DNA of 56,466 nucleotides from Acidimicrobiia bacterium (GTDB lineage: Bacteria > Actinomycetota > Acidimicrobiia > Spongiisociales > JAHEDJ01). Under the pieces are notes generated by a model, which searched no databases, had not been told where the DNA came from, and saw nothing but the letters and a program-made list of their open reading frames with translations. Shown here one piece after another: positions 1 through 13,300 of this stretch; positions within the stretch are counted from its first letter, which is position 1, and every line of letters begins with the position of its first letter. The DNA lies in contig JARGFH010000004.1 of the NCBI GenBank assembly GCA_029210695.1, positions 62,001 to 118,466 on the forward strand. Direction: 5' to 3'. The translations under genes were made by a program, and so were the position numbers.

Positions 1-685
1 TCGTCAGACGCCCGGCCCGGTCGTACAGCGAAACCACCACATGCGGTTCGATCGCGCAGTGCGCGTAGCGGGGCACCTCGTAGGTGTCTTCGAGGACCAG
101 GTCGGCCTCGGCGAAACCTTCCTCGACGTCGCCTTTGCGCGTCTTCCGCCAGTGGGCGATGTTCGTGCCTTCGTGCGGGAAGAACCATGGGACATGCGGG
201 TAGTCCGCCAGGTCGGGGTGGAGAAGTGGAGCTTCCTCGGTGGCGGCAAACACCGGATCGAAGACCGGAGGCAGAACCTCGTATTCGACCTCGACGAGTT
301 TGGCTGCTCGCTTGGCGATCCCCTCGTCACGGGCCACGACGGCCGCCACCTGTTCGCCTACAAAGCGGACGCGGTCCTGGGCGAACACGAAGCGGTCCTT
401 CATGTAGAGGCCGAACCCGAACGGGAAGTCGGCGCCGGTGACGACCTTCACGACACCCGGAACGGCTTCTGCCCTGGCAGTATCGATCCGCTTGATCAGG
501 GCGTGCGCATGCGGTGCTTCCACGATTTCAGCAAACAGCAGGTCGGGGCCGAAGTCGAAGTCGTCGACGTATCGGGCGGCTCCACTCACCTTTTCGAGAC
601 CGTCGATGCGGGTAGGGGATTTGCCGACGAAGGTGAGTTCCCGTTCATCGGTATCGGTTTCGAACGGCCGGCGGGTGATCGTCAT
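1..685 (-). CDS. Xanthine dehydrogenase/CoxL-family molybdopterin-binding large subunit (5' part only, runs off the window)
   Basis: Not in the ORF track because it has no stop in the window. Hand translation from ATG at 685 gives MTITRRPFETDTDERELTFVGKSPTRIDGLEKVSGAARYVDD...PHAHALIKRIDTARAEAVPGVVKVVTG...DRVRFVGEQVAAVVA. ATGA overlap with the 2Fe-2S gene. Confidence 0.92.
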   Translation of the reverse strand, partial: MTITRRPFETDTDERELTFVGKSPTRIDGLEKVSGAARYVDDFDFGPDLLFAEIVEAPHAHALIKRIDTARAEAVPGVVKVVTGADFPFGFGLYMKDRFVFAQDRVRFVGEQVAAVVARDEGIAKRAAKLVEVEYEVLPPVFDPVFAATEEAPLLHPDLADYPHVPWFFPHEGTNIAHWRKTRKGDVEEGFAEADLVLEDTYEVPRYAHCAIEPHVVVSLYDRAGRLT

Positions 686-1152
686 GATCGGGCCTCCTCG
701 GCGGCTGCCATTACCGCGTCGAGGATCGGCTCGTACCCGGTGCACCTGCACAGGTTGCCGGCCAGAGCGTGCTGGACGTCGTGGCGCGACGGATTCGGGT
801 TGTCGCGCAGGAGTTCGTGTGCACCGAGCACGATGCCTGGTGCACAGAATCCGCACTGGAAGGAGTTGTGGCTGATGAACAGATCCTGAAGGTTGCTCAG
901 GACGCCGTTCTCCGGAATGCCCTCCACTGTGATGATCTCGTGGCCGTCGGCCTCAACCGCGAGCATGAGGCAGGAACGGATGCTGCGGCCGTCGAACAGC
1001 ACGGTGCAAGTTCCGCAGTCTCCACGTTCGCAGCCGATCTTGGCGCCTTTTGCGCCGACCCTGTTGCGGATTACGTCGAGTAGAACTTCGTTCGGTTCGA
1101 CGTCCAGGGGCCATGTTTCACCGTTGACGATCATCGTGATCGGTAGCTTCAT
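682..1152 (-). CDS. CoxS/XdhC-type (2Fe-2S)x2 small subunit
   Basis: GCERGDCGTC...C and QCGFC...GNLCRCTGY motifs. Confidence 0.95.
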   Translation of the reverse strand: MKLPITMIVNGETWPLDVEPNEVLLDVIRNRVGAKGAKIGCERGDCGTCTVLFDGRSIRSCLMLAVEADGHEIITVEGIPENGVLSNLQDLFISHNSFQCGFCAPGIVLGAHELLRDNPNPSRHDVQHALAGNLCRCTGYEPILDAVMAAAEEARS

Positions 1153-1161
1153 GTCATCCCC

Positions 1162-2052
1162 TCAGATCAGCCGGGTTCCGTAGGCCGGGCCGGTTCCGTC
1201 GCGCCTGGCGACGGCTGCGGGGAGCCCTCGCTCCAGCATCACTTCGCAGATGCGAGCCCGGTATTCCTTGGTGGCCCGCATGTCGGTGATGGGGGAGATC
1301 GCGCCGGGGACCAGGCCGACCGCTGCCGCGATCAGCTCATCGGTGAGTTCTCTCCCGTTGAGCGTCTCTTCGACGGCGTGGGCGCGGGCCGGGATCGGCC
1401 CGACTGCTCCGAACGCCACACGGAAGTCGTTGTCTCCCGTCACCAGGACGGTGACGCCGGCCTGTGATAGATCCTCACCCTGATACCGCTGCAGTTTGAG
1501 GTAGATCGCACCGTGCGGAGGCGGGGGAATCGGGATGGATAGGCCAGTCACGATCTCTCCTCCGGCCAGTGCCGTCTTGTGCGGACCAAGGAACCACTCT
1601 TCGATCGGGACGGTCCGGGCCCCGGCCGGTCCCAGCACCGCCACGGAGGTGTCCAGCACTAGAAGCGTAGGACCGGCGTCACAGGACGGGACGGCCGAAC
1701 AGATGTTGCCGATGACGGTGGCCCGGTTGCGAATGCCGGGGGAGGCGACGGTGTCTGCCATCTCGAAGAGGATGGGGAGGTGGTCGTGAACGAGATCGGA
1801 GGTGAGGAGATCAGAGAATGTGACGAGGGGGCCGAGGAAGATGTGGTCGCCTTCGAGCGAGATTGTGTTGAGTCCGTCGATGGCCTTGATGTCGACGACG
1901 AGATCCGGGTGGATGGCATCGTCACGCAGCCATGGGACGAGATCGGTTCCGCCGGCGAGTATTCGGGCATCGGGTCCGGCGCGGGTGATGGCCTCGACCG
2001 CCTCGTCGAGCGTCGCGACCTTCTGGTAGGCGAACTGGTGGGCGATCGCCAT
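1162..2052 (-). CDS. CoxM/XdhB-type FAD-binding medium subunit
   Basis: ILAGGTDL, IRNRATVIGN and ISPITDMRATKEYR motifs. Start MAIAHQ follows a GGAGG RBS. Confidence 0.93.
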   Translation of the reverse strand: MAIAHQFAYQKVATLDEAVEAITRAGPDARILAGGTDLVPWLRDDAIHPDLVVDIKAIDGLNTISLEGDHIFLGPLVTFSDLLTSDLVHDHLPILFEMADTVASPGIRNRATVIGNICSAVPSCDAGPTLLVLDTSVAVLGPAGARTVPIEEWFLGPHKTALAGGEIVTGLSIPIPPPPHGAIYLKLQRYQGEDLSQAGVTVLVTGDNDFRVAFGAVGPIPARAHAVEETLNGRELTDELIAAAVGLVPGAISPITDMRATKEYRARICEVMLERGLPAAVARRDGTGPAYGTRLI

Positions 2053-2264
2053 CGTTGCCCCTCCTTGCCTTGTTGTTGCAGAACTCAACCTACCCGGCAG
2101 CTGCCGATTCCATCACGCTATGACGTGAGGGATCCGGGTCAACAGGGCCGAACGGCTGAATTTGCAGGCTCGTCGGTCACCGACTGGAGGGTTTCAACTT
2201 TCTCCGCAATGCTGTGTATCGAAAACCGACCACTGCATTGCGGAGAACCCGGTTTCACTGCCTT

Positions 2265-3668
2265 TCACCGCACCCCGTCCGCCAGTGCAACCACGGCTTC
2301 TGCGAAGCATTGCATCGGTGCCTTCACGAGACCGGCGCCGACCATGCCGATGCCTGGGTCTTTGTGGGCAATGCCCGTGTTGATCTGTGGTTGCACGCCG
2401 GTTCGTACCACCAGCGTGGCGTCGATCCCGACCGGGGTTCCCCGGAACTCGAGTTGGGGGATCTGGTAGGCGGGGTGCTCGGCCAGGGTGATCTCATACA
2501 TTTCCTGCGTGCGGCGTACCGCGCCGGAGGCCGTTCCACCGACGAACCCGACGATGGCCGGTGAGGCGGCCATGGCGAATCCACCCAGACCGACCGTCTC
2601 GGTGATGGCCGAGTCACCGATGTCCGGGTTGGCGTCGGCCTTGGTGAAGGCACCCAGAAACAGACCGTCCACGATCGGCGCCGGAGCAGTGAACCATCGA
2701 TCTCCGGTCCCGGAGAGGCGAATGCCGAAGTCGGTGCCGTTGCGGGCCATCGTGGTCACCAGGCTCGAACCCTCGACGCCCGACGCCGCATCCACCGCCA
2801 GTTTTCCGGCCGCCATCACCAGATTGAGCATGAAGTGGTCGTTGCTCTCGATGAACCGGAACACGGCTCCGCGCTCGGCGAGCGGCACCGACTCGTTCTC
2901 CACGAGTCCCGGCCCGAACATCCGCAGCAGCAGCGAGGTGGCAGCCCGGTTCCGATTGTGGCCATCGTCGCCCATTTGCAACGCCTGGGCGATGAGCGAC
3001 TGGAGGTCGATCGGACCGACGTACTTCAGTGTGGCGGCCACGACCGGACCGAGGACGTTGCCGATCCAGTGGAGCCGTTCGATGACCTCAGGCCCATACG
3101 CTCCGTAGCGGAGCACTTTGCCGAGCCCTTCGTTGAGCGTGGAGTAGGCAACTCCGTCTCCATCGGCGTCGCGCACGACTGCGACCGGCATCGAAGGCGA
3201 CACGATTCCCGCCATCGGCCCGACCGTCTGATGATGGTGACAAGGCGACATGGTGATTCCACCCCCGCCGGCAATCTCCTCTGCCTCTTCCGCGGTGGCG
3301 GCCATTCCCTCGTACAGCAGCGCTCCGATGATTGCCCCCTTGATAGGCCCGCTGCTGCGGTCCCAGGTCAAAGGAGGTCCTGCGTGGAGGAGCATCGTGT
3401 CGGTCATTCCGGGGATGACTTCGCGGGCGACGGCCACATCGACGAACTGCGGACGCACCGCCAGCATCCGCTCGATGGCCGTTGCGTTGGCCGCTTCGGT
3501 GCGGCCGGCCGCCGCCAGGGAGGCGAGCGCATCTGCGGTTCCGGCGGCCGGTGGCCTCCATTCCGCAGCTGCGATCGTGGTGGCCTGGTCGACGAGCGCC
3601 TGCCCGAGGATCTCGACCCCGGCGGTGGCAACGATCAGTTCGTCCTCAAGCAGGCGTTCGAGACTCAT
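2265..3668 (-). CDS. DUF1116 protein (YlbE/YahG; AllG-like oxamate carbamoyltransferase subunit)
   Basis: LLHAGPP, PCHHHQTVGPMAG, NEGLGKVLRYGA, MGDDGHNRN, RNGTDFGIR, DIGDSAITET and INTGIAH motifs. N-terminal WRPPAAG segment. Confidence 0.9.
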   Translation of the reverse strand: MSLERLLEDELIVATAGVEILGQALVDQATTIAAAEWRPPAAGTADALASLAAAGRTEAANATAIERMLAVRPQFVDVAVAREVIPGMTDTMLLHAGPPLTWDRSSGPIKGAIIGALLYEGMAATAEEAEEIAGGGGITMSPCHHHQTVGPMAGIVSPSMPVAVVRDADGDGVAYSTLNEGLGKVLRYGAYGPEVIERLHWIGNVLGPVVAATLKYVGPIDLQSLIAQALQMGDDGHNRNRAATSLLLRMFGPGLVENESVPLAERGAVFRFIESNDHFMLNLVMAAGKLAVDAASGVEGSSLVTTMARNGTDFGIRLSGTGDRWFTAPAPIVDGLFLGAFTKADANPDIGDSAITETVGLGGFAMAASPAIVGFVGGTASGAVRRTQEMYEITLAEHPAYQIPQLEFRGTPVGIDATLVVRTGVQPQINTGIAHKDPGIGMVGAGLVKAPMQCFAEAVVALADGVR

Positions 3669-5092
3669 GCTTCACCTCCCACCAATTCTGCCGCCCGGGT
3701 TGCCGCGGCCGCGTTCGAAAGGAACACCGCCGCCCCGGCCTTTTGAAGTAGACCGGCCTGATAGTCGAGGCCTTGCGGGTCGCCTTTCGACCCGCACAGG
3801 GTTGCCACGACGGCAATACCTGCCCCGCTGAGTTCTCGAATGACCGGCGCCAGTTCCACAGCCGGATCGGGATTCGCTCCGTAGCCGAGTACCACGTCGA
3901 GCAGAACCACACCGATCGAGGTGTTGGTCACGGTCGATTCGAGGCGCTCGAGTCGTACCGTCTGGTCGATCATCGGATGGGCTCGGCCTTCCGTATACAA
4001 ATCGTCTCCGTAGTCGACCAGGGACGAGCCCTCAGTCGTCTCGGTGAGGAACAGGGGTCCGATTACCGGCTCGACGATGAACCGGGCCTCGTCGCGCAGG
4101 GTTCCGCCGGAGAACAGACCGCGCAGGCCTCCCGACCTGTGATCACCACTCGCAGCCGGCCAGATCGTGAAGGTGGCGGGCTCCCTACCCAGGAGCGAAA
4201 GGACCGCGTTGGCGGCTCCTTCGAGCGTCGACCCCGGCTCCATGAAGGCGACGACGACCGGTGTGGAACAATGGGCGGCGGCGGCGCGGACGGCGGTTGC
4301 CACTTCTGTGGCCGGCGGCTTCGAGACGACCACGATCACGTCGGTGCCCGGATCGGCGTCGAGGGCCGTCAAGCCGCGCAGTGTCGACGACCCTCCCACC
4401 GCCTCAGACAAATCCCGGCTCCCGGTGCCCCAGGCGTGGCGGATTCCCACTCCGGCGTCGTCGAGGAGGCACGTGAGCTGCTGAATGCCGGTCCCGGAAG
4501 CTCCGACCAGGCTCACCGACCCCGGCCGTACGGCGTTGGCAAACCCGAGGCCGATGCCGCCCACGATCGATGTGCCGCAATCGGGACCCATGACGAGGAG
4601 ATCCCGCTTTGCCGCCTCCTCCTTGAGGAGAATCTCGTGCTCGATTGAAACGTTGTCGCTGAATACCATCACATGTAGACCAGCCCGCAGAGCTCCCATC
4701 GCTTCGACAAAGGCATAACGGCCGGGAATCGAGATCAGGGCCAGATTGGCCCCGATGGTCGCAGCCGCCGTTTCGACGAGATGCGCCGGCGGCGAGTCGG
4801 TGGGTTCGGAAGATCCCCGCTTGGCGGCGAGTGCCTCCTCGAGAACCTGGTCGGTGGTGGCGAGCGCAGCTTCGTCCACCGCCCGCACCGCCACGATCAG
4901 ATCGTTCGGTCCCACCCCGACCAACTGCTCCGGGTCGAAATGCAGATCTTCGAGGAGTGTCAGGTTGAGCTCGGTTCCCATCGCCACCAGGGCCTCCTCG
5001 ACACCCGCCGCCGTGCGCAGGACCTGGCTGGCCTGCATGAGCCGGACGGAGTCGTGATAGCGGCCCGAGTGGACGGTGATACGGTCGATCAT
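3665..5092 (-). CDS. fdrA: FdrA family acyl-CoA synthetase-like protein (AllF-like)
   Basis: YHDSVRLM, ISIPGRYA, FSDNVS, MGPDCGT, GASGTGIQ, GLFSGGTL, GRAHPMID and LLDVVLGYG motifs. Confidence 0.9.
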   Translation of the reverse strand: MIDRITVHSGRYHDSVRLMQASQVLRTAAGVEEALVAMGTELNLTLLEDLHFDPEQLVGVGPNDLIVAVRAVDEAALATTDQVLEEALAAKRGSSEPTDSPPAHLVETAAATIGANLALISIPGRYAFVEAMGALRAGLHVMVFSDNVSIEHEILLKEEAAKRDLLVMGPDCGTSIVGGIGLGFANAVRPGSVSLVGASGTGIQQLTCLLDDAGVGIRHAWGTGSRDLSEAVGGSSTLRGLTALDADPGTDVIVVVSKPPATEVATAVRAAAAHCSTPVVVAFMEPGSTLEGAANAVLSLLGREPATFTIWPAASGDHRSGGLRGLFSGGTLRDEARFIVEPVIGPLFLTETTEGSSLVDYGDDLYTEGRAHPMIDQTVRLERLESTVTNTSIGVVLLDVVLGYGANPDPAVELAPVIRELSGAGIAVVATLCGSKGDPQGLDYQAGLLQKAGAAVFLSNAAAATRAAELVGGEA

Positions 5093-5910
5093 GAGTCATT
5101 CTCCCGGGTGAGTGCAGAGCCGCCGATCCAAAGGCCGGCCGCCAGGGCGGCGCCCGACGAGTGACCGACGGCGATGAGGCGGTTCGTGGCCGACGTGAGG
5201 TCACCCCGCCCCGTCAAGGCGCACAGGACCTGTGCGAAGGGGAGAGCGACCCTGCCTCGGAGAGCGTGGCGGATCAACGCCCCCGAGAAGCTGGTTGTGC
5301 GGGTTCTGGTCAGATCGTCGAGTGGACGGATGAGGCGCTCGAAGTAGGGCAGGTGGCGGCCCAGTGCGCCGCCGAGCAGAAGGTGCGAAGCGAGCGCTCC
5401 TGCTACAACGTCGTCGCCTTCTGGAGTCAGACCCTCTCCCTTACCGAGCAGCATCAGGGAGCTACTGAGCACTGCTTCGGCATCCTCATCGGTGAGCGCC
5501 TCGAGCAGCCCCGAACCGTCTACCGGGCCGATCGTCAGGCGCAGCCTCTCCAGGTTCGTCCGCAGCTGGGACTTCTCACACCGACCGAGGGATGGTCGGG
5601 GATCGAACCAGCGACGGGCTTGCGCGGTGAGGCTCCCAACGCGGATCATGCCGTCCCCCACGGAGACGGCATCATCGCTGCCGATCCACCGCCCGAGTTC
5701 TTCCACGGCCAGCTCGAGGGCGTTCGGTAGACGGACGGCGGCGCGGTCGGACACCACGATCGCCTCATCGCCCGTCCCCATCCAGGCAGCATGATCGGAG
5801 ACGCCGAGCAAGGTGGCCGCCTGAACGGGTCCCGTCAGCAACGGTTGCAGCGCAACACTCGCTATCGCGGCGAGTTGAACGGTCGCGGCGGGAGTCGTCG
5901 ACCCGTGCAC
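5089..5910 (-). CDS. DUF2877 protein (YlbF/AllH-like)
   Basis: LLGKGEGLTPEGDDVVAG, RTTSFS and VGHSSG motifs. Translationally coupled to fdrA. Confidence 0.85.
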   Translation of the reverse strand: MHGSTTPAATVQLAAIASVALQPLLTGPVQAATLLGVSDHAAWMGTGDEAIVVSDRAAVRLPNALELAVEELGRWIGSDDAVSVGDGMIRVGSLTAQARRWFDPRPSLGRCEKSQLRTNLERLRLTIGPVDGSGLLEALTDEDAEAVLSSSLMLLGKGEGLTPEGDDVVAGALASHLLLGGALGRHLPYFERLIRPLDDLTRTRTTSFSGALIRHALRGRVALPFAQVLCALTGRGDLTSATNRLIAVGHSSGAALAAGLWIGGSALTRENDS

Positions 5911-5913
5911 CGA

Positions 5914-7005
5914 TCAGCCGTGATCGACGATGGCGATCATGGGGCCACCGCCGGAAGGACCTTGATGAAGTGCTCCGACGGACACGAAGACGGCCGGATC
6001 GCCGACCGCCGCCGAGACCACGCCACCGACCGTGCCCTTGATCTGGCGGTGATGATGCACGTCCGAGTCGTTGAGCATGACCTGGCGACGCCCGCGGACC
6101 CGGGAGGTCGGGTCGGCCTCGCACTTGCAGAACATGTTCACAACCCGGCCGTCGAGGTCTTCTGCCTTGGCCCGCTCGGGAATATCGAGACCGGCATTGC
6201 GGATCGCCTCGTAGACGGCTTCGATGTCCAGGGCGTCGTCCATGACGCTATGGCCGATTTGATACCGCCCGCCGACCCCGCGGGCGTTTCCGACGACCAC
6301 CGTCTGCGCCTGGTCGAGTTCAACACCGGACGAACATGATGCAACCGCGGAATAGAGGCTGAGGTCGTGACAGATCTGCTCGTTCGTCGGCATCTCGATC
6401 TCACCGAGCGCAACGGCGATTCCGAGCCCGGACGTGCCGTTGGAGATGTCCATGGAGCGGAGGGTCTCCTCGGTGATGACCGTGTTGCCGCGTGCCCTGG
6501 CCTGTACGATCGTCTCCATGGTGAGCAGAGGCGTTTTCGTTTGCACGTAGTGAACGTCGGCCGGATCGTCGATGCCGGCATTCTTCATGGCTCTCCGCAC
6601 GCCTTCGGCGACCTTCTCGACCATCGCCACCCGCCCGATGTCCTCGGGAAGGATCGCGTCGCTCATGGCGATTCCGACGGTGAGCCGCGGTTCGTCTGAT
6701 GGGGGCGCATCGACCCGGGCGAACACGGTCGCATGCGGGCACAGCACGCCGTCGACGCCGCCCGACCAAACCATCGGGATCTGCCCGACTTCCTCGACCG
6801 GGCGCGTGCCTTTCTCCATGAGCACTTTGCGGAAGGCTTGATCGGCGAGGATGCGGGTGAAGTCGTTCACACCGCCGTTCCCCTCGGTCTTGCCGACTAC
6901 TGCGATGACCTCATCTGCAGCGAATACACCTTCGTCGATGAGCGCCGCCAATCCGGACGCGTCCGAGACCCCTTCGAGGATGACCTTGCGTACCTCGATC
7001 GCCAT
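5914..7005 (-). CDS. bar: Barbiturase (cyanuric acid hydrolase/barbiturase ring-opening amidohydrolase family)
   Basis: [40 protein letters not shown] and [16 protein letters not shown]. These match barbiturase-type variants rather than AtzD-type (KCPLL, SRG, SGGxEHQGP). Confidence 0.88.
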
Positions 7006-7122
7006 GGCGCGATACCTCCTTCTCCGACTCTGAATCTGATCTGTCCATCATCGTCCCAACTCGTGACGCCGAATAGGGGCCTAGGTCACCGAATAGGTGA
7101 CGGGCGTGGCATTCTGTAGGGC

Positions 7123-7560
7123 ATGGATGCATTTCTGGAGGCCGCCATCGAAGAGGCACGCCTGGGGTTGGCCGAGGGTGGGATTCCGATCGGGTCGGTT
7201 CTCGTAGTGGATGGTGAGATCGTAGGCCGGGGGCATAACCGTCGTGTCCAACAGGGCAGCACTGTGTTGCACGCCGAGATGGACGCGCTCGAGAACGCCG
7301 GCCGGATGTCCGGCGCCGACTATCGCCGTTCTGTGCTCTATTCAACGTTGTCGCCGTGTGACATGTGTTCCGGTGCGGCGCTGCTGTACGGAATCCCGCG
7401 AATCGTCGTAGGGGAGAACCGGACGTTCCAGGGTCCGGAATCGTACGTGCGATCACGGGGCGTTGAAGTGGAAGTCGTCGATGATCCGTCTTGCGTGGCG
7501 ATGATGGAATCCTTCATTCGGGAGCACCCCGAACTGTGGAACGAGGACATCGGGGTTTGA
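7123..7560 (+). CDS. Cytosine deaminase, fungal FCY1-like zinc nucleoside/nucleobase deaminase
   Basis: EGGIPIGSVL, HAE...PCDMC, YGIPRIVVGEN and C-terminal WNEDIG. Confidence 0.85.
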   Translation: MDAFLEAAIEEARLGLAEGGIPIGSVLVVDGEIVGRGHNRRVQQGSTVLHAEMDALENAGRMSGADYRRSVLYSTLSPCDMCSGAALLYGIPRIVVGENRTFQGPESYVRSRGVEVEVVDDPSCVAMMESFIREHPELWNEDIGV

Positions 7561-7569
7561 GGAGGTTCG

Positions 7570-8256
7570 ATGAAGAGGATCGGATTGCTCGGCGGGATGA
7601 GCTGGGAGTCGTCGGTCGAGTACGAACGGATCATCAATGAAGAAGTGCGGTCCCGGCTCGGAGGTGTGCACTCGGCCGACCTGATCGTCAGATCGTACGA
7701 CTTTGCCGAGATCGAGAAGCTCCAGGAGCGTGGGGCCTGGGACGAAGCAGGAGAACTGCTGGCGGCCGATGCAGCTTCGCTCGAGGCGGCCGGCGCCGAG
7801 GTGATCCTCTTGTGCACGAACACCATGCACAAGGTGGCTGCATCCATCGAGGCGGCCATCACCGTTCCGTTCCTACACCTGGCGGACGCCACCGCCGAGG
7901 CCGTGCTGGCTGCCGGCGTGTCGAACGTCGCGTTGCTGGGCACGCGCTACACGATGGAGCAGGACTTCTACCGATCGCGGCTTGAGCGCCACGGCCTGGG
8001 GGTGCTGATTCCGGAAGAACCCGACCGAACGATGATCCACACCGTGATCTTCTCGGAGTTGGTCCGTGGTGTCATCACCGAGGAGTCGAGGGGGCAATAC
8101 CTGGCCGCCATCGACCGGTTGCTGGAGCGGGGCGCGCAGGGGGTCATTGCCGGATGCACCGAGATCGAGTTGCTGGTGTCATCCGGGGACCTCGAGTGCC
8201 CCTACTTCCCGACGACCCGCCTGCACGCCCTCGCCGCAGTCGATTTCGCGTTGTGA
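7570..8256 (+). CDS. Asp/Glu racemase family amino-acid racemase (YgeA/RacX-like)
   Basis: IGLLGGMSWESS, CTNTMH and GCTEI; both catalytic Cys present. Confidence 0.9.
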   Translation: MKRIGLLGGMSWESSVEYERIINEEVRSRLGGVHSADLIVRSYDFAEIEKLQERGAWDEAGELLAADAASLEAAGAEVILLCTNTMHKVAASIEAAITVPFLHLADATAEAVLAAGVSNVALLGTRYTMEQDFYRSRLERHGLGVLIPEEPDRTMIHTVIFSELVRGVITEESRGQYLAAIDRLLERGAQGVIAGCTEIELLVSSGDLECPYFPTTRLHALAAVDFAL

Positions 8257-8411: not shown

Positions 8412-10331
8412 TCATCCGGGGGAGGGGCCTGGCTCGTCCTCGGTCGAAGCGTCGTCGAGTCGGATGATCCAGAGCCCTGAGTTCATGTCACTCAAGTAGA
8501 TCAAGTCATCCTGCACGTCGACACCCCAGACCATCGGAAAGGCGGTGGCCCCATTGGGAGCGACCCAGTAGCCGACAGGATCGCGCGATCGTGGCGGAAC
8601 GAACGAGCCGACCTCAGTCGGCTGTGTCGGATCGGACAGGTCCACGATCCGGACTCCGTCCGAATACCACGAAGAGATTGCCACTGACCCACTCATGACG
8701 GTGTCGTGAATCGAGTAGATGCCATCGAGCCCGAGACCACCTGCCCCGTCGTCGCTGGATCGTTGAGTGGCGAATCCGGCTATCTCTACCGGGTTCCTCG
8801 GGTCGCTCACGTCGTAGATGTGTTGTGTGCCCCATCCTTTGGTGTGGGCGTCGTCTTCCGTCGGGTAGAAATCCTCCTCATTGACGATCAATAGTGCGCT
8901 GGTTTCGTCGTATACGCTCGAATGCCGGTTGCCTTCTCCGTCCGGGATGAATCCGATGGCACTGACGAACGTCGGCCTGGCCGGATCCTCGAGATCGAGC
9001 AGGATGGTGCCTGCGTCCCAGTGCGACACCCAGGCGGTCAGTCCACCGGAGCACAACCCGACGGAGTGGGCATGGATTTCTTCTTCGTCGTATCCCCCCA
9101 CGACAGGCCTGCCGTCGCGCCGGTTGTCCCAATCGGCCAACTCGACGGGGGCGGTCGGGTTGGTAGCATCGATGAACCTCGTGTCACCGAGTTCACGGTC
9201 TGTGTGGAGCAAGGACTGGCGTACGGTGGTCGCTACCAGCAGCACGCCGTCGTCACGTTGGACGACCGAAACCGAGTTGGCACCCTGCGTTCTGTCTCCG
9301 CTGCTCCAGGTGGAGAGCAGAGTCGGTTCGGCCACATCGTTGACGTCGTAGAAGGCCAGTCCGCGGAAGTTGTCCCGGGTCCTTCCGGGTTCGTCGTTGT
9401 TGCACAATCGCAGGGCCACAACGGCCAGGTCTCCGGAGAAGAAGGCCGTATTCACCGGGCCGACCCAGAGTGTTTCAGCGCTCGTGCCGGGGAACTCGTT
9501 TCCGTCGGCGAATGCACCGATTGACTCGGGACTCGCAGGGTCGGTCACGTTCACAACCCGGACTCCCGTTCCCGGGCAAAGGCCCGGGCGCCCCCACGTT
9601 CCTAGGTATGCAGTGTCCCCCTCGACCACGACATCGGCTGTGAAGCCGCCGCCGGGATCGAGACGACCGACCAATGACGTGTTGATCTCTTCATACTCCG
9701 GTATCCATCCCGCTCCGGACACACCGGCCAGCGTGGCAGCCGGTGCGTCTACGCCTTGCGCCTCGAGGAGATGGCCGTACGGGTTGACGGCAGTGCCGTC
9801 CGGCCGGTGGAGTTCGAAGTGGAGATGTGCCGGTGTTCCTTCGGCGTTGCCACTGTCGCCGACGAAATCGAGCAAGTCGCCCGCTTCGACAACGGCTCCG
9901 ACAACGATGCCGTCCACCGGCGCCGCACCGAGACCATCATCGGTTCCCGGGGTGTCGTTGTTGAGATGCAGGTAGTAGGAGAGCCATCCGTCTTCGTGTT
10001 GGATCACGATGTAGCGACCGGAGAGGTCGCCGATCGTGACCCGGACGATGGTTCCGTCTGCAGCCGCCACGACGGGCGTGAGCTTGTCGGCGAAGATGTC
10101 CGTTCCCTGATGGGTTCGGCCTCCGGACCGTGGCGCTCCGAACGTATCAACGTAGGAGTTCTCGCCGGCGACCGGGAAGAGGAGCGGGTAGGCCTCGAGG
10201 ACGTCGTCTTCCGGTGGTGGCGGTGTGAACTGCGCGCCACCGGTGCTGAGCATCGCGGCGATCATGACGACCGCCAGAAGTGCCTTGAGCCTATGCCCCC
10301 AGCTCACGACCTCGCTCTCGTACCCCTTCAC
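8412..10331 (-). CDS. Secreted M23 peptidase fused to an LVIVD-repeat beta-propeller
   Basis: Signal peptide; HQGTD and HLHFE M23 motifs; repeated VRVVNVTDP, IYDVSDP and VRIVDLSDP; ends YLSDMNSGLWII; AGGAGG RBS. Confidence 0.85.
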   Translation of the reverse strand: MKGYESEVVSWGHRLKALLAVVMIAAMLSTGGAQFTPPPPEDDVLEAYPLLFPVAGENSYVDTFGAPRSGGRTHQGTDIFADKLTPVVAAADGTIVRVTIGDLSGRYIVIQHEDGWLSYYLHLNNDTPGTDDGLGAAPVDGIVVGAVVEAGDLLDFVGDSGNAEGTPAHLHFELHRPDGTAVNPYGHLLEAQGVDAPAATLAGVSGAGWIPEYEEINTSLVGRLDPGGGFTADVVVEGDTAYLGTWGRPGLCPGTGVRVVNVTDPASPESIGAFADGNEFPGTSAETLWVGPVNTAFFSGDLAVVALRLCNNDEPGRTRDNFRGLAFYDVNDVAEPTLLSTWSSGDRTQGANSVSVVQRDDGVLLVATTVRQSLLHTDRELGDTRFIDATNPTAPVELADWDNRRDGRPVVGGYDEEEIHAHSVGLCSGGLTAWVSHWDAGTILLDLEDPARPTFVSAIGFIPDGEGNRHSSVYDETSALLIVNEEDFYPTEDDAHTKGWGTQHIYDVSDPRNPVEIAGFATQRSSDDGAGGLGLDGIYSIHDTVMSGSVAISSWYSDGVRIVDLSDPTQPTEVGSFVPPRSRDPVGYWVAPNGATAFPMVWGVDVQDDLIYLSDMNSGLWIIRLDDASTEDEPGPSPG

Positions 10332-10352
10332 CGTACTCCTCCTGAGGGTGTT

Positions 10353-10380
10353 TGGGGACCGGCCAAACGGCCGGTCCCCA
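10353..10380. terminator. Intergenic 12-bp-stem hairpin (terminator or mRNA stabiliser)
   Basis: TGGGGACCGGCC-AAAC-GGCCGGTCCCCA; no U-tract on the coding (minus) strand. Confidence 0.5.
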
Positions 10381-10392
10381 TTTCTCGGCTAG

Positions 10393-13300
10393 TTACGGTG
10401 TTGTCGTCGTTGTTGGCACCGGCCAGAAGATGATCCGGCGGAACCAGATGTCGTTCTCGGACGACTCCTCAGGCTTCCACGGGTAGTAGCGGGTGTACTC
10501 TTCGTCCGGGTCCTCTTCCGCCGAGATCATCGAGTGCCAGATGACGTACGCTTTCGAGCCGTCGGACGTTGCCCGGAGCTGGCATTCGCCCTGCTCCTCG
10601 GGCTCGCCCTTGGCGATATAGTCGTAGCGCCACACCGTCTCTCCGAAGCCGGCGTTGCTGTTCTCACCGCCGATCACCCACGGGATCTTGACGTACGAGT
10701 CGCCGTAGTTCTCGGAGCGGGTGTAGAAGATATCCAGAGGCCCGGACTCCGCCTTCTCTCCCGTTGAGCCGGTGGACTTGGCGTTGTCCACAGTACCCCA
10801 GGCGACAAAGAACATGTTGTCCACGTACTCGTCCTCAACGAATCTCAGGGGCGGCAACGTGGCAAGTCTACCGTCGAGCGGGTACACCGGCGGGGTGGTG
10901 CCCAGCCGTGGGTCGCCCGAGGACTCCTTGTTGCTCTTGATCTCCGAGATGTTCCGCGCCGGCTCGAAGGCGCCGGCTGCGATGAACTGGGCGGGTAGAC
11001 CCTCGGGAGTAGCCCCCATCGGGTCCAGGTAGTTCGTCATCGCCACCCCGGTTGGCACCGGCGGTAGTTCGCCGTCGGGTACCGTTGCCGGATCGTAGGT
11101 GCCGCAGATGCCTGACGGGGCATCCAACAAGACCTGGGGTGGCAGATTCCCCGAACCGTCCGGATCTGGGTTGTTCGGATCCGACCTGAACTCGGGACAG
11201 ACGTAGACACCATCCCCTGCCGGGTCGGTGGTCCAGGTCTGGCCACCGTCGAAGGACCTCCTCACGTAGAAGTTGTAGCGGTCGTTGCCGTTGCGCCCGG
11301 CCGCCCAGTTCGGCGACAGGGAGTAGGCGACGACGAAGAAGTCACCACGGATGAAGCCGCGGTGACTCCGCACATTGGAGTACATCGCCGGGCAGACCTC
11401 GGGAACTCCGTCTTCTGTGTTGAGACCGAGGACATCACAAGGTGTCCCGTCCTCATGCACCAATCCGTACGACTCGTCGCCCAGATTGGACACGTTCTGA
11501 CTCCACAGCAGCACCTTGTTGGTGCCGTACCGGTCGTCGGTCGGGTCGTCGGGCGTGTCGTCATCCGGACCGGCGTCGACCGCCAGGTCGACGTTGGCGC
11601 TGGTCAGGTTGACGTGGTCCCGGCGCTGGTAGCCGTCATTGGGATCGGTGAACACGCCGCCGCACAACCGATCGCCGGAGGCCTCACCCCAGACGTTGCA
11701 GTTGTAGCCAACTGCGCTGTCTTTGTCGCCGGTGCCGTTGGGACAGGCCGGCAAGGCAAATGTCTCGTCCAGGTAGGTCGTGCACTGCATGTTCTCGAAC
11801 GCAAACGGGTTATCCACCTTCGGATTGAAACCACCAGGATTTGTGGAACTCTTCTGTTCTGGTACCACGAACCTGCGTATGAACGCGTCCGCCGGACGGC
11901 CCTGCCCCTCCTGACCTTGCTTGTAGATGATCGCCCCGGCCGTCCTGGTGGCATCAATCTTGCTGTACGACTGCACCAGGAAGCGCGCCCGGCGGGCGAT
12001 CTCATATCTGTACTGCAGGAAGAAGTCCTCGTCGGGTAGCCACTCGCCTCCTGTCACTTCTCCGGTAACCGGATCGGTGCTCTCATCGACCCAGTAGTCG
12101 AAGTAGAGCGGGACCGGTTGACCCGGCTCGCAGGAGCATGTTGGGTTCTCCTCGTTGGTTTCGATCACGTCCGGGGTCTTGGGGTCGTCACAGTAGGTCG
12201 GGTACAACCCGCCGCACAGCGCCGGCAAGTTGACGATGTGGCCCGGAGCCACCAGATCGGGCTGGGCGAAGTCAAAGCTGTGGTACATCATGTTCTTACC
12301 GATGTCCTGCTTGATCGGCTTCTCCTGGCCTTTGTCGTCGGATTGGTCGCCGATGATCTCGTCCACGGGGTTGTCGGTTTCGTCGTGCGCTTCATCTGCC
12401 AGCGAGTGGCCCAGACCCTTTGACTCCTCGTAGGCGAGCAACGCCCAGGCGCTCCTAGTGCCGTCGGACCTGGTGTACGGCTGCAGTTGCAGCATCGGCC
12501 GCGAGGCGAACACGTCGCCGTCGAGTAGGCGGCCATCGGAGGCCACGCAGACCAGCTTGTCGGCGCCGGCCACGTTGGTGAATCCGAACCAGCGCTCATG
12601 CTCCGATGTGCCGGGCATTGCGTCCATGAAGGAGTTGGTCCCCGACAGGTCGCACAGGTCCAGGGTTCCGCCTCGATCCATGTAGTACTGGTAGTCGGGC
12701 ACGCCGTCTCCGCCGGCTCGGTACAAGCCGGTAGCGTTGTCGACCTCATCGATGTCTCGGGCCATGTAGGCATAGCGCTTGGTCCCGTTCATGTTGCCGA
12801 AGAACCCCTTGAGGTCCTCACAATTGGGGTCGCCCTCATGGTTATCCGGATCGCAGCAGGTGGCCGGATCGGCCTCGGGGTGACCGCAGAACTCTGCCGC
12901 GATTTCCTCGGGATCGATCGGTACAAACGAACCGTCCACGACCTCGGGGAAGCAGACCGGATCGTTCAAATAGGTGCTATCCGGGAAAACCGGGCAGTCC
13001 GTGCTCGGCTCCACCTTCAGCGTGTGGGTGTTGACCATGTCGTTGTCGGTGATCCGCACCGGCAGGCTGAAGGGCACCAGGACCTTGGGTCGGCCGAGGC
13101 CGGGCTTGTCGAGATAACCCTCTTCGCCCGTAGGTTCGGCGTCGGTACCGCCGCCGGGCCCGCTGGATTCGAAGTTCTCATCAACGATGTTGAAGTCGTC
13201 GTAGGAGATGAAGCTGTACCAGATGTCGGTCTTGTGGTTGGAGATGGCACCGCTCCAGCCCTCGCCGGGGCCCTTGCCCTTGCCGGGCCGCAGACCGCTC

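What the first reader, a model, noticed from the sequence alone, without database searches (positions are those of the whole stretch)
1..7560. Barbiturase coupled to an AllFGH-like transcarbamylase: candidate phosphorolytic, energy-conserving pyrimidine oxidation pathway
Seen: barbiturase, DUF2877, FdrA and DUF1116 form a tight operon (3-bp gap, then 4-bp overlaps). CoxM/S/L genes follow on the same strand and a cytosine deaminase is divergent. Established: oxidative pyrimidine catabolism runs uracil -> barbiturate (molybdo-hydroxylase) -> ureidomalonate (barbiturase) -> malonate + urea (ureidomalonase). E. coli FdrA/YlbE/YlbF (AllFGH) is oxamic transcarbamylase (oxalurate + Pi -> oxamate + carbamoyl phosphate). 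Inference: ureidomalonate is oxalurate plus one CH2, so this complex may convert ureidomalonate + Pi to malonamate + carbamoyl phosphate. That would replace hydrolysis and yield ATP via carbamate kinase, giving cytosine -> uracil -> barbiturate -> ureidomalonate -> carbamoyl-P. I know of no biochemical description of such an enzyme. No ureidomalonase, allantoin-pathway gene or carbamate kinase is recognisable in the window.
Basis: partly seen in the sequence, partly recalled or inferred. Interest (0 to 1): 0.9.

Follow-up and report, generated by a model that had tools for sequence, protein, structure and literature searches.

The report
Barbiturase operon with carbamoyl-phosphate-forming enzyme
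An uncultured actinobacterium carries an operon that probably oxidises uracil to barbiturate, opens the ring, and then splits the product with phosphate rather than water, which would recover ATP from pyrimidine breakdown; no such enzyme step has been described.

Summary
Window 1-7560 carries, on the minus strand, barbiturase, AllH-, AllF- and AllG-like genes (3-bp gap, then two 4-bp overlaps). A three-subunit molybdenum hydroxylase follows, and a yeast-type cytosine deaminase is divergent.

Comparative genomics supports it:
- AllF/AllG lie in the fetched DNA beside barbiturase in 36 of 53 loci.
- 13 of 15 further barbiturase genomes carry AllG elsewhere, often 17-66 kb away in one supercluster.
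- Carbamate kinase lies in the fetched DNA (1-6 kb away) in 24 of 53 loci.
- Related layouts add a xanthine/uracil permease, a PucR regulator, an amidase (candidate malonamidase), a CoA-transferase and a carboxyltransferase.
- The window's genome has one AllFGH set and no AllC/AllD/AllE homologues. Its carbamate kinase lies on another contig.

New here: a conserved GNAT-fold / thiolase-like / DUF35 trio follows the hydroxylase just left of the window. In metagenomes this trio travels with AllHFG and the hydroxylase while the ring-opener is either barbiturase or a cyclase-family hydrolase.

Against: the genome has urease and five amidases, so hydrolysis is not excluded. HyuAB and the trio are unexplained.

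Earlier notes of this scan report the same pairing in other genomes. My four literature searches found no paper on it.

The parts
1..685 (-). N-terminal part of the molybdopterin-binding large subunit of an XDH/CoxL-family hydroxylase. The gene continues left of the window (contig C126 60304-62685; about 794 aa from the ATG that overlaps the 2Fe-2S gene's stop by 4 bp).
   Evidence: Pfam Ald_Xan_dh_C, MoCoBD_1 and MoCoBD_2. The start was read from the translation.
682..1152 (-). 2Fe-2S subunit of the hydroxylase (CoxS/XdhC-like).
   Evidence: Pfam Fer2_2 and Fer2. NCBIfam hits are all below the equivalog cut-offs.
1162..2088 (-). FAD-binding subunit of the hydroxylase (CoxM/XdhB-like).
   Evidence: Pfam FAD_binding_5 and CO_deh_flav_C.
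2199..2247 (.). Copy of a 49-bp repeated element (REP-like) that forms a strong hairpin inside the 176-bp AllG-CoxM gap.
   Evidence: 41 further matches of 79-98% identity elsewhere in the genome. RNA fold of 2089-2264: -72.6 kcal/mol, z = -3.82, 0 of 200 shuffles as good.
2265..3668 (-). AllG-like subunit (DUF1116), 467 aa, with a conserved N-terminal extension of about 59 residues that E. coli AllG lacks.
   Evidence: PF06545, 306.7 bits. 46% identity to E. coli YlbE/AllG over residues 60-466. The extension aligns weakly with the C-terminal tail of E. coli AllF (hhalign E 0.0028, probability 11%). It is the only AllG in the genome.
3665..5092 (-). AllF/FdrA-like subunit, 475 aa, lacking the last ~60 residues of E. 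coli FdrA.
   Evidence: Pfam CoA_binding + Ligase_CoA. 38% identity to E. coli FdrA. 218.6 bits to PDB 3dmy. Ala lies at the position aligned with the phospho-histidine of succinyl-CoA synthetase alpha.
5089..5910 (-). AllH-like subunit (DUF2877), 273 aa.
   Evidence: PF11392, 76.4 bits. 34% identity to E. coli YlbF over the C-terminal 114 residues.
5914..7005 (-). Barbiturase-type ring-opening amidohydrolase, 363 aa.
   Evidence: PF09663 full length. 526.7 bits to PDB 5hwe barbiturase against 326.4 or less to cyanuric acid hydrolases. Asn at the position of the hydrolases' substrate-binding Arg, as in 5hwe.
7006..7122 (.). Divergent intergenic region between barbiturase and cytosine deaminase. 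By eye it holds a nine-base word twice (about 7069-7077 and 7090-7098), the second copy flanked by a short inverted repeat. Possible operator, not tested.
   Evidence: Read directly; no statistics were run.
7123..7560 (+). Yeast Fcy1-type (CDA-fold) cytosine deaminase, 145 aa.
   Evidence: 162.7 bits over residues 5-144 to PDB 1uaq and other yeast cytosine deaminase entries. Pfam dCMP_cyt_deam_1. Linked to barbiturase in only 3 of 53 loci and 1 of 17.
7570..8256 (+). Asp/Glu/hydantoin racemase family protein, co-directional with the deaminase. Membership in the system is doubtful.
   Evidence: PF01177; TIGR00035, 209.7 bits. Found beside the cluster in the own genome and in one of the 52 related loci, the nearest relative L006.

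Best explanation
The operon encodes an oxidative pyrimidine (uracil, probably also thymine) catabolic route.

Proposed steps:
1. Cytosine deaminase supplies uracil.
2. The three-subunit molybdenum hydroxylase oxidises uracil to barbiturate.
3. Barbiturase opens the ring to ureidomalonate (N-carbamoyl-malonamate).
4. The AllH-AllF-AllG complex transfers the carbamoyl group to phosphate, as its E. coli homologue does with the one-carbon-shorter N-acylurea oxalurate. The products are carbamoyl phosphate and malonamate.
5. Carbamoyl phosphate is used by carbamate kinase to make ATP. The kinase is unlinked in this genome but lies in the cluster in many relatives. Carbamoyl phosphate could also feed biosynthesis.
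6. Malonamate is processed further. In relatives the candidates are a linked amidase, a CoA-transferase and a carboxyltransferase. In this genome the candidate is the conserved GNAT-fold / thiolase-like / DUF35 trio just left of the window.

Shown here: gene identities, operon structure and conservation of the linkages. Inferred: every substrate, phosphate dependence, and the fate of malonamate.
For: 1. Barbiturase identity. 526.7 bits to the solved Rhodococcus barbiturase against 326.4 or less to cyanuric acid hydrolases. Asn replaces the hydrolases' Arg in 45 of 46 relatives (1 of 46 did not match the search pattern), as in 5hwe.

2. Precedent. Purified E. coli AllF-AllG-AllH interconverts oxamate + carbamoyl phosphate and oxalurate + Pi, and is co-transcribed with carbamate kinase AllK (PMC11326118, abstract and Discussion read). 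The window's subunits are 38, 46 and 34% identical to it.

3. Linkage.
- AllF/AllG lie in the fetched DNA next to barbiturase in 36 of 53 loci, in at least four gene orders.
- Of the other 17 loci, 15 genomes were searched whole and 13 carry AllG. In 5 of them AllG is on the barbiturase contig, 17-66 kb away.
- Around AllG in 7 of those genomes, the stretch holds AllF and AllG in 7 of 7, AllH in 6 of 7, and a divergent hydroxylase operon in 6 of 7.

4. Genome samples.
- Class: all 6 of 201 genomes with the amidohydrolase family also have AllG, which occurs in 9 of 201.
- Phylum: 19 of 22 genomes with the family have AllG, which occurs in 52 of 401. The 3 exceptions have proteins only 38-43% identical to the window's.

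5. Carbamate kinase. It lies in the fetched DNA, 1-6 kb from barbiturase, in 24 of 53 loci. It is present in 11 of the 12 AllF/AllG-bearing stretches. The family representative passes NF009007 (278 vs cut-off 266). One layout reads Bar - xanthine/uracil permease - carbamate kinase - AllH - AllF - AllG - hydroxylase.

6. Other linked genes. A PucR regulator and a permease lie between AllH and the hydroxylase. Amidase, CoA-transferase III and carboxyltransferase are in the same superclusters.

7. The own genome has one AllFGH set, no Ldh_2/AllD family member and no tblastn hit to E. coli AllC, AllD or AllE at E <= 1e-5. No known source of oxalurate is therefore evident.
Against: - There are no biochemical data, and sequence cannot fix the substrate.
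- The window's own operon has no carbamate kinase. The genome's only one sits beside an ATCase-like transcarbamylase on contig C162.
- The genome has urease and five amidase-signature proteins. A hydrolytic ureidomalonase route yielding urea is therefore not excluded. That route is the one reported for Rhodococcus (Soong et al. 2001, seen only as a citation; otherwise recalled).
- AllF scores below the NCBIfam FdrA cut-off (389.7 vs 433).
- Two barbiturase-family genomes have no AllG (L015, L057).
- Two conserved partner modules have no assigned role: ATP-dependent HyuA/HyuB (caprolactamase-like) and the GNAT / thiolase-like / DUF35 trio. The true order of steps may therefore differ. For example, AllHFG might act on an acylurea made later.
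- I could not examine Rhodococcus erythropolis itself.
- Related genomes are not independent, so the co-occurrence counts overstate support.
Confidence: 0.6

Rival explanations
1. Classical hydrolytic pathway. Ureidomalonate is hydrolysed to urea + malonate by an unlinked amidase, and urea is split by urease. The AllFGH-like complex has another role in the same regulon. One possibility is an FdrA/succinyl-CoA-synthetase-like ligase activating malonate or malonamate to a CoA or phosphate derivative that the thiolase-like / DUF35 / GNAT proteins then use.
For: The genome has a urease alpha subunit and five amidases. AllF carries CoA_binding and Ligase_CoA domains. CoA-dependent-looking enzymes (thiolase-like, GNAT fold) are in the same operon. 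A ureidomalonase activity yielding urea is cited for Rhodococcus (citation only).
Against: The only characterised AllFGH is a carbamoyltransferase, not a ligase. AllF has Ala where succinyl-CoA synthetase alpha has its catalytic His, and E. coli FdrA also has no His in the matching stretch of the alignment. Carbamate kinase lies in the fetched DNA in 24 of 53 barbiturase loci, which a urea-forming route does not explain. The best own-genome match to the cluster-linked amidase is only 37% identical.
Confidence: 0.17
2. The AllFGH-like complex is an ordinary oxamate carbamoyltransferase acting on oxalurate (or on another ureide such as carboxybiuret or triuret products). It merely shares a nitrogen-heterocycle catabolic island with barbiturase.
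For: AllFGH-type modules also occur in other contexts. One is beside allophanate hydrolase in another genome of the class (L065). Another is beside triuret/biuret genes in comammox and archaeal ammonia oxidisers (PMC12625717, passages read). The family is therefore not tied to barbiturase.
Against: The gaps and overlaps (3-bp, 4-bp, 4-bp) suggest translational coupling with barbiturase. The linkage persists through at least four rearranged layouts. The own genome has no AllC/AllD/AllE homologues. 19 of 22 genomes with the amidohydrolase family have AllG, against 52 of 401 overall.
Confidence: 0.08
3. The hydroxylase substrate is not uracil but another N-heterocycle, and the 'barbiturase' opens a related ring. 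AllHFG would then phosphorolyse a different N-acylurea. Under this reading the GNAT / thiolase-like / DUF35 trio, not barbiturase, defines the pathway.
For: In 14 of 14 metagenome loci of the second layout with enough flank, the trio, AllHFG and the hydroxylase are kept while barbiturase is replaced by a PF04199 cyclase-family hydrolase. The hydroxylase subunits reach no NCBIfam equivalog cut-off.
Against: By eye from the alignment, roughly 70% of residues are identical to the characterised barbiturase, and it shares that enzyme's Asn. Xanthine/uracil-family permeases are in the cluster. A cytosine deaminase lies next door in this window.
Confidence: 0.12

Closest known systems
E. coli AllF-AllG-AllH oxamic (oxamate) transcarbamylase with carbamate kinase AllK (Kim & Kim 2024, PMC11326118)
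   Same: The same three protein families are encoded together. Identities are 38, 46 and 34%. The proposed substrate is the next homologue of oxalurate (an N-carbamoyl amide of a dicarboxylate). In many relatives carbamate kinase lies directly upstream of AllH.
   Different: - Gene order is H-F-G, not F-G-H-K.
- The window's operon has no carbamate kinase.
- AllF lacks about 60 C-terminal residues, and AllG has a conserved N-terminal extension that may be that piece.
- The context is barbiturase + molybdenum hydroxylase instead of allECD.
- The genome has no AllC/AllD/AllE homologues.
- AllF scores below the NCBIfam FdrA cut-off.
Oxidative pyrimidine pathway of Rhodococcus erythropolis: uracil/thymine dehydrogenase, barbiturase, ureidomalonase (Soong, Ogawa & Shimizu 2001-2002; recalled, seen only as a citation)
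   Same: The barbiturase is a close homologue (526.7 bits to PDB 5hwe). A molybdenum hydroxylase is present that could be the uracil dehydrogenase.
   Different: The last step there is reported as hydrolysis to urea + malonate. Here a phosphorolytic carbamoyl transfer is proposed. Gene assignments for the dehydrogenase and ureidomalonase are not known to me, so I could not test identity with them.
Cyanuric acid / triuret / biuret catabolism (AtzD, TrtA, BiuH, AtzF), sometimes collocated with allFGHK in nitrifiers (PMC12625717, passages read)
   Same: The ring-opening enzyme family is the same (PF09663). AllFGH-type genes are linked to an acyl-urea-producing pathway.
   Different: The window's enzyme belongs to the barbiturase branch, not the cyanuric acid hydrolases. 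No biuret or allophanate hydrolase lies in the cluster. That paper reads allFGHK as an oxalurate pathway, and the word stem 'barbitur' does not occur in it (0 occurrences).
Arginine deiminase pathway (catabolic ornithine transcarbamylase + carbamate kinase); established knowledge, recalled
   Same: The energetic logic is the same: a ureido group is transferred to phosphate and the carbamoyl phosphate is cashed in for ATP.
   Different: The transcarbamylase fold and the substrate are unrelated.

Membership tests
Barbiturase (EC 3.5.2.1) within the cyclic amide hydrolase (AtzD/TrzD/barbiturase, Toblerone fold) family | Full-length match to the family model | tested here: met
   PF09663, 479.9 bits, residues 4-361 on profile 1-358; TIGR02714, 509.8 bits.
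Barbiturase (EC 3.5.2.1) within the cyclic amide hydrolase (AtzD/TrzD/barbiturase, Toblerone fold) family | Closer to the characterised barbiturase than to cyanuric acid hydrolases | tested here: met
   526.7 bits to 5hwe barbiturase against 326.4, 320.9, 308.9, 257.1 and 244.1 bits to cyanuric acid hydrolases. Note that the NCBIfam cyanuric acid hydrolase equivalog is also passed (463 vs 360).
Barbiturase (EC 3.5.2.1) within the cyclic amide hydrolase (AtzD/TrzD/barbiturase, Toblerone fold) family | Loss of the hydrolases' substrate-binding Arg (Arg188 of the Azorhizobium enzyme) that marks the barbiturase subgroup | tested here: met
   In the alignments the Moorella hydrolase has Arg at this position, while the window's protein and 5hwe both have Asn. 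45 of 46 relatives have Asn, and 1 of 46 did not match the search pattern. PMC4051656 (passages read) says the barbiturase subgroup has glutamine here. I cannot explain the discrepancy in residue name.
Barbiturase (EC 3.5.2.1) within the cyclic amide hydrolase (AtzD/TrzD/barbiturase, Toblerone fold) family | Hydrolyses barbiturate and not cyanuric acid | not testable with these tools
   Needs an enzyme assay.
AllFGH oxamate carbamoyltransferase (E. coli type) | Three subunits AllF (FdrA), AllG (DUF1116) and AllH (DUF2877) encoded together | tested here: met
   Pfam hits to all three in adjacent, overlapping genes.
AllFGH oxamate carbamoyltransferase (E. coli type) | AllF passes the curated FdrA model | tested here: not met
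   NF004760 scores 389.7 bits against a cut-off of 433. The match covers profile positions 6-493 of 555.
AllFGH oxamate carbamoyltransferase (E. coli type) | Operon with catabolic carbamate kinase (allK) | tested here: not met
   No carbamate kinase lies in the window or in 20 kb to its left. The feature is met in relatives: 14 of the 36 AllF/AllG-bearing loci and 11 of 12.
AllFGH oxamate carbamoyltransferase (E. coli type) | Genomic context that produces oxalurate (allantoin genes allB/C/D/E) | tested here: not met
   The 97.85%-complete genome has no Ldh_2/AllD family member and no tblastn hit to E. coli AllC, AllD or AllE at E <= 1e-5.
AllFGH oxamate carbamoyltransferase (E. coli type) | Catalyses oxamate + carbamoyl phosphate <-> oxalurate + Pi | not testable with these tools
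   Needs an enzyme assay.
Xanthine dehydrogenase / CoxLMS family molybdenum hydroxylase | Three subunits with FAD, 2x[2Fe-2S] and molybdopterin domains | tested here: met
   Pfam domains. No NCBIfam equivalog (xanthine DH, CO DH, 4-hydroxybenzoyl-CoA reductase and others) reaches its cut-off, so the substrate is open.
Yeast-type cytosine deaminase (Fcy1, CDA fold) | Full-length similarity to solved Fcy1 well above that to tRNA, guanine or dCMP deaminases | tested here: met
   162.7 bits over residues 5-144 to 1uaq, against 77 bits or less to other deaminases.
GNAT-fold acyltransferases (for the 250-aa protein left of the window) | GNAT fold | tested here: met
   AlphaFold2 model from a 24-sequence alignment has pLDDT 83.1. 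Foldseek against the PDB gives 170 matches at E <= 0.001, and the matches shown are nearly all acetyl/acyltransferases of the GNAT type (PatZ, Rv0998, SpeG, RimJ).
GNAT-fold acyltransferases (for the 250-aa protein left of the window) | Match to a curated GNAT sequence family | tested here: not met
   No Pfam or NCBIfam hit. No PDB sequence hit with a profile at E <= 10.

The most novel reading that the evidence does not exclude
AllHFG, the molybdenum hydroxylase and the GNAT-fold / thiolase-like / DUF35 trio form the conserved core of an undescribed, ATP-yielding oxidative route for pyrimidine-type rings. In this route:
- the ring-opener is interchangeable (barbiturase or a cyclase-family hydrolase);
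- AllHFG is a ureidomalonate:phosphate carbamoyltransferase, which would fill the place of the sequence-orphan ureidomalonase step;
- the trio is a new kind of enzyme system that converts malonamate (or an acylurea) to acetyl units.
Probability: 0.3. Interest if true: 0.85.

Novelty: new variant of a known kind. Interest (0 to 1): 0.75.

Why it matters
The oxidative pyrimidine pathway has been known as enzymology for decades. To my knowledge (recalled) its genes, apart from barbiturase, are unassigned, and its last step has been treated as a plain hydrolysis that wastes the ureido bond.

If the reading is right, four things follow:
- A candidate gene set for the whole pathway becomes available: permease, regulator, hydroxylase, barbiturase, carbamoyltransferase, kinase and malonamate/malonate enzymes.
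- The newly discovered AllFGH enzyme class gains a second substrate. That would make it a general acyl-urea phosphorylase family rather than a one-off of allantoin fermentation.
- Pyrimidine oxidation would gain one substrate-level ATP per ring and release nitrogen without urease.
- Annotation would need changing. These AllF/AllG/AllH genes now carry oxamate carbamoyltransferase names in Pfam, and NCBIfam scores the barbiturases above its cyanuric acid hydrolase cut-off.

The carriers seen are mainly uncultured Acidimicrobiia and other Actinomycetota from soils, sediments and sea water, so the route may matter for nucleobase turnover there.

Tried and rejected
- First gene calling in the high-GC loci, by longest ORF, mis-called many genes (barbiturase recovered in only 30 of 53 loci). 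I replaced it with a GC3-filtered caller and with tblastn tables.
- I first split the barbiturase loci into 'with AllFG' and 'without AllFG' and took the amidase as an alternative to AllFGH. Whole-genome searches then showed AllG in 10 of 10 of the 'without' genomes, in the same supercluster. I dropped the replacement idea.
- The first structure prediction of the 250-aa protein, with 8 close sequences, failed (pLDDT 39.5). A profile search of PDB sequences found nothing. The word-based homologue search returned only close relatives, with the 120 listed at 75% identity or more.
- BLASTP of the AllG N-terminal extension against the E. coli AllF tail gave no alignment. Only hhalign gave a weak, collinear match.
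- I considered that the amidohydrolase is a cyanuric acid hydrolase, as NCBIfam's model would name it, and rejected this.
- I considered that the linked carbamate kinase family might be another amino-acid kinase. I rejected this, although the representative is below the TIGR00746 cut-off (337 vs 358) and passes only NF009007.
- I did not use complex prediction, read laying or the look-up of sequencing runs.

Full report
**What is in the sequence**

The window is contig C126:62001-118466 of a 3.9-Mb, 97.85%-complete genome. The nearest public contigs are labelled Actinomycetes/Acidimicrobiia metagenome bins.

On the minus strand of 1-7560 lie seven genes, in transcription order:
- a ring-opening amidohydrolase (5914-7005);
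- AllH-like (5089-5910);
- AllF/FdrA-like (3665-5092);
- AllG-like (2265-3668);
- the FAD subunit (1162-2088), 2Fe-2S subunit (682-1152) and molybdopterin subunit (from about 685, running off the left edge) of an XDH/CoxLMS-family hydroxylase.

A 176-bp gap before the hydroxylase genes holds one copy of a 49-bp element. That element has 41 further matches in the genome and folds into a strong hairpin (z = -3.82).

Divergently, 117 bp away, lies a 145-aa deaminase. It is a full-length relative of yeast cytosine deaminase Fcy1 (162.7 bits, against 77 or less for other deaminases).

**Left of the window**

I fetched the contig to the left. The large hydroxylase subunit is complete there. The same strand continues with three more genes:
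- a 250-aa protein with no Pfam or NCBIfam family;
- an SCP-x-type thiolase-like protein (Thiolase_C_1);
- a DUF35 OB-fold protein.

No carbamate kinase or amidase lies within 20 kb.

The 250-aa protein has a GNAT fold. A first model from 8 sequences failed (pLDDT 39.5). A model from 24 diverse relatives reached pLDDT 83.1. Foldseek then gave 170 PDB matches at E <= 0.001, and the matches shown are nearly all GNAT-type acyltransferases. The protein-atlas look-up also named N-acetyltransferase-like clusters.

**Is it a barbiturase?**

NCBIfam's cyanuric acid hydrolase equivalog is passed (463 vs 360). A direct search of solved structures tells otherwise: 526.7 bits to the Rhodococcus barbiturase 5hwe against 326.4 or less to five cyanuric acid hydrolases.

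Cho et al. (PMC4051656, passages read) report that the hydrolases' substrate-binding Arg188 is lost in the barbiturase subgroup. In the alignments the Moorella hydrolase has Arg there, while both 5hwe and the window's protein have Asn. 45 of 46 relatives do too, and 1 of 46 did not match the search pattern. The paper names glutamine, a discrepancy I cannot resolve.

I accept barbiturase, or a 5-substituted-barbiturate hydrolase.

**How like E. coli AllFGH?**

Kim & Kim (PMC11326118; abstract and Discussion read) purified AllF-AllG-AllH. They showed oxamate + carbamoyl phosphate <-> oxalurate + Pi, in an operon with carbamate kinase AllK.

Against the K-12 proteins (locus L062) the window's subunits are:
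- AllF: 38% identical;
- AllG: 46% identical;
- AllH: 34% identical over the C-terminal 114 residues.

There are four differences:
- Gene order is H-F-G.
- AllF lacks about 60 C-terminal residues.
- AllG has a conserved 59-residue N-terminal extension.
- AllF is below the NCBIfam FdrA cut-off.

BLASTP found nothing. hhalign gave one collinear 40-column match to E. coli AllF's tail, but weakly (E 0.0028, probability 11%). I call that partly supported.

AllF has Ala where succinyl-CoA synthetase alpha has its phospho-histidine. E. coli FdrA also has no His in the matching stretch of the alignment. This speaks against ordinary ligase chemistry.

**Is the linkage conserved?**

A scan of species-representative genomes with the barbiturase returned 52 loci. 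With the window's own locus that makes 53.

- AllF and/or AllG lie in the fetched DNA in 36 of 53.
- 15 of 53 show at least part of the downstream trio, in the window's order (barbiturase, AllH, AllF, AllG, hydroxylase, GNAT-fold protein, thiolase-like protein, DUF35).
- In 11 of 53, with the hydroxylase genes upstream in most of them, the cluster continues with HyuA/HyuB. These are ATP-dependent and caprolactamase-like (533.7 and 204.6 bits, far below the equivalog cut-offs).
- Carbamate kinase lies in the fetched DNA, 1-6 kb from barbiturase, in 24 of 53. Of these, 14 have AllF/AllG. In the other 10 the kinase gene lies directly upstream of barbiturase (its match begins about 1.0-1.2 kb before the barbiturase match).

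The kinase representative passes NF009007 (278 vs 266) but not TIGR00746 (337 vs 358).

**The loci 'without AllFG' are not without it**

I first took these 17 loci as a second class. There an amidase-signature enzyme, seen only in them (6 loci), might replace AllFGH. Whole-genome searches overturned that.

- AllG is present in 10 of 10 genomes of the kinase-barbiturase type.
- AllG is present in 3 of 5 'orphan' genomes. L015 and L057 have none.
- L036 and L054 were not searched. L036 ends right after an AllH-like ORF.
- In five genomes AllG is on the barbiturase contig, 17-66 kb away. This follows from matching contig lengths.

The DNA around AllG shows AllH-AllF-AllG divergent from the hydroxylase genes in 6 of 7 stretches. 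A PucR-family regulator and a xanthine/uracil permease lie between them.

Joined, the layout is: AllG <- AllF <- AllH | PucR -> permease -> hydroxylase -> amidase -> HyuA -> HyuB -> (CoA-transferase III, carboxyltransferase) -> carbamate kinase -> barbiturase.

The amidase therefore co-occurs with AllHFG. It is better read as a candidate malonamidase. The CoA-transferase and carboxyltransferase would then be a malonate -> malonyl-CoA -> acetyl-CoA tail.

**Independent samples of genomes**

- In 201 genomes of the same class, the amidohydrolase family occurs in 6 and AllG in 9. All 6 with the family have AllG. In 5 of them it lies on the same contig a few kb away, and in the sixth a contig break intervenes.
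- In 401 genomes of the phylum, the family occurs in 22 and AllG in 52, with both in 19. One of the 19 (G442) and three more of the 52 (G217, G361, G419) are genomes flagged as unpublished. These tallies rest partly on them.
- The three genomes without AllG have proteins only 38-43% identical to the window's, so they are not barbiturase-type.

Of 17 stretches fetched from this sample:
- 12 have AllF/AllG 3.4-17.3 kb from the amidohydrolase, and 11 of these 12 also have carbamate kinase.
- One, dissected with Pfam, reads barbiturase - xanthine/uracil permease - carbamate kinase - AllH - AllF - AllG - PAS protein - Sir2 - hydroxylase.

Two caveats apply. The two samples draw on the same collection of species representatives and overlap in at least one contig (L075 equals L034 by length). 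Relatives are also not independent.

**The window's own genome**

- It has one AllFGH set.
- It has no Ldh_2/AllD family member and no tblastn hit to E. coli AllC, AllD or AllE. No known route to oxalurate is evident.
- It has one carbamate kinase (376 bits, over the cut-off), but on contig C162. There it sits in an operon with a GntR regulator, an ATCase-like transcarbamylase, two PLP enzymes and an ABC transporter.
- In five other genomes with the window's layout, a full-length kinase is present elsewhere in 4 of 5. It is in pieces with an in-frame stop in the fifth.
- The genome also has a urease alpha subunit and five amidases. The best is 37% identical to the cluster-linked amidase.

A hydrolytic, urea-forming route therefore cannot be excluded here. 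The argument 'no urease, hence AllFGH' does not apply.

**The trio and an interchangeable ring-opener**

The GNAT-fold protein belongs to a narrow, highly conserved family:
- 176 representatives at E <= 0.001 among 1.84 billion proteins clustered at 50% identity;
- 2297 sequences in the larger collection, with the 120 listed at 75% identity or more and none carrying a functional name.

A metagenome scan seeded on it kept 80 loci. My tblastn tables show:
- The thiolase-like gene follows it in 63 of 63 loci with at least 1.3 kb downstream.
- 27 loci have the hydroxylase large subunit directly upstream, as in the window. Of the 6 with at least 9 kb upstream, 6 have barbiturase and AllG and 0 have the cyclase-family gene.
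- 23 loci have a second layout: GNAT - thiolase-like - DUF35 - AllH - AllF - AllG - PF04199 'cyclase' family hydrolase - hydroxylase (Pfam). Of the 14 with at least 7 kb downstream, 14 have the cyclase-family gene and the hydroxylase and 0 have barbiturase.
- 2 informative loci have neither layout, and 28 are too short to tell.

So the trio, AllHFG and the hydroxylase are the constant parts, and the ring-opener is one of two unrelated hydrolases. From recall, PF04199 includes kynurenine formamidase and isatin hydrolase, that is, amide and lactam hydrolases.

This supports the view that AllHFG acts after a ring-opening step. It also leaves open that the second layout handles a different ring.

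**How it most likely works**

The steps are those set out in the best explanation:
1. Cytosine is deaminated to uracil.
2. Uracil is oxidised to barbiturate by the hydroxylase.
3. Barbiturate is opened to ureidomalonate by barbiturase.
4. Ureidomalonate + Pi gives carbamoyl phosphate + malonamate, by AllHFG.
5. Carbamoyl phosphate + ADP gives ATP + carbamate, by carbamate kinase.
6. Malonamate goes on to malonate and acetyl-CoA, through the amidase / CoA-transferase / carboxyltransferase in some lineages and perhaps through the trio in this one.

The chemistry of step 4 is the homologue of the demonstrated oxalurate reaction. I put 0.6 on step 4.

What I cannot explain:
- Why HyuA/HyuB accompany the cluster in many lineages.
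- What the trio does. Ideas are a GNAT-fold decarboxylase acting on a malonyl or malonamoyl thioester, or thiolase-type cleavage of a beta-carbonyl amide. Neither was tested.
- Why the window's layout has dropped carbamate kinase from the cluster.

**Prior knowledge**

Four full-text searches were run:
- barbiturase / ureidomalonase: 17 papers;
- oxamic transcarbamylase / allFGH / DUF2877 / DUF1116: 15 papers;
- oxidative pyrimidine and related terms: 1 paper;
- fdrA / ylbE / allG with barbitur / ureidomalon: 208 papers, 20 listed, the hits being chance word matches.

None found a paper that links AllFGH-type genes to barbiturase or ureidomalonate. The library lacks most subscription journals. 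The 2025 nitrifier paper reads allFGHK next to triuret/biuret genes as an oxalurate pathway; I did not read its supplements.

Earlier notes of this scan report the same barbiturase-AllF/AllG pairing on other genomes (e1-773689, e1-773690, e1-4440412), a cyanurate-type variant (e1-2640335) and a cyclase-like variant (e1-980276). These are unchecked AI notes. My own calls reproduce the pairing, the kinase link and the cyclase-type variant.

**Verdict**

The feature is real and conserved. I class it as a new variant of a known kind (an AllFGH-type carbamoyltransferase recruited to oxidative pyrimidine catabolism), interest 0.75.

Noticed in passing
window 2199-2247, with 41 further matches on other contigs of the genome: A 49-bp REP-like repeat (79-98% identical copies, often in tandem pairs about 60 bp apart) forms a 12-bp perfect-stem hairpin. 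Here it sits inside an operon, between AllG and the hydroxylase genes, where it could act as an mRNA stabiliser or attenuator.
   Followed up: partly
contig C162:1097-6609 of the same genome (locus L061): The genome's only carbamate kinase lies in an operon with a GntR/UTRA regulator, an ATCase-like carbamoyltransferase (TIGR00670, 255 bits vs cut-off 237), two PLP-dependent enzymes (threonine-synthase-like and cysteine-synthase-like) and an ABC transporter. This looks like a separate, unassigned catabolic transcarbamylase pathway.
   Followed up: partly
L110:16063-16881 and 13 further metagenome loci: A PF04199 'cyclase' family hydrolase takes the place of barbiturase in an otherwise equivalent cluster (GNAT - thiolase-like - DUF35 - AllH - AllF - AllG - cyclase - hydroxylase). 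It is present in 14 of 14 such loci with enough flank, and none of them has barbiturase.
   Followed up: partly
loci L030-L032, L037-L039, L042-L045, L056 (with AllF/AllG) and L010, L013, L041, L046, L048-L050, L055 (kinase-barbiturase type): HyuA/HyuB (ATP-dependent hydantoinase / oxoprolinase / caprolactamase family) are a recurrent member of barbiturase clusters and have no role in the proposed pathway. Their substrate is unknown.
   Followed up: partly
L065 (G184:C246), L064 (G041:C11), L063 (G033:C8): AllG-bearing genomes of the same class that lack barbiturase show other contexts: AllF next to an allophanate hydrolase; a formamidase/acetamidase and a glutamine-synthetase-like gene; and a cupin plus an AMP-binding enzyme. 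The AllF/AllG module seems to serve several amide/ureide pathways.
   Followed up: partly
window 7006-7122: By eye, the divergent promoter region between barbiturase and cytosine deaminase carries a nine-base word twice, about 12 bp apart, the second copy inside a short inverted repeat. It may be an operator. No regulator gene lies in this cluster, whereas relatives have PucR or PAS regulators.
   Followed up: no
window 8412-15456: Right of the cluster lie a 639-aa M23 peptidase with LVIVD repeats and a 1687-aa ORF. I did not examine them further.
   Followed up: no
L070 (G281:C6): A PF09663 protein only 47% identical to the window's barbiturase is followed by AllF and AllG at +3.4 and +5.0 kb, with no AllH or carbamate kinase detected. 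It may be the cyanurate-type variant noted earlier in this scan.
   Followed up: no
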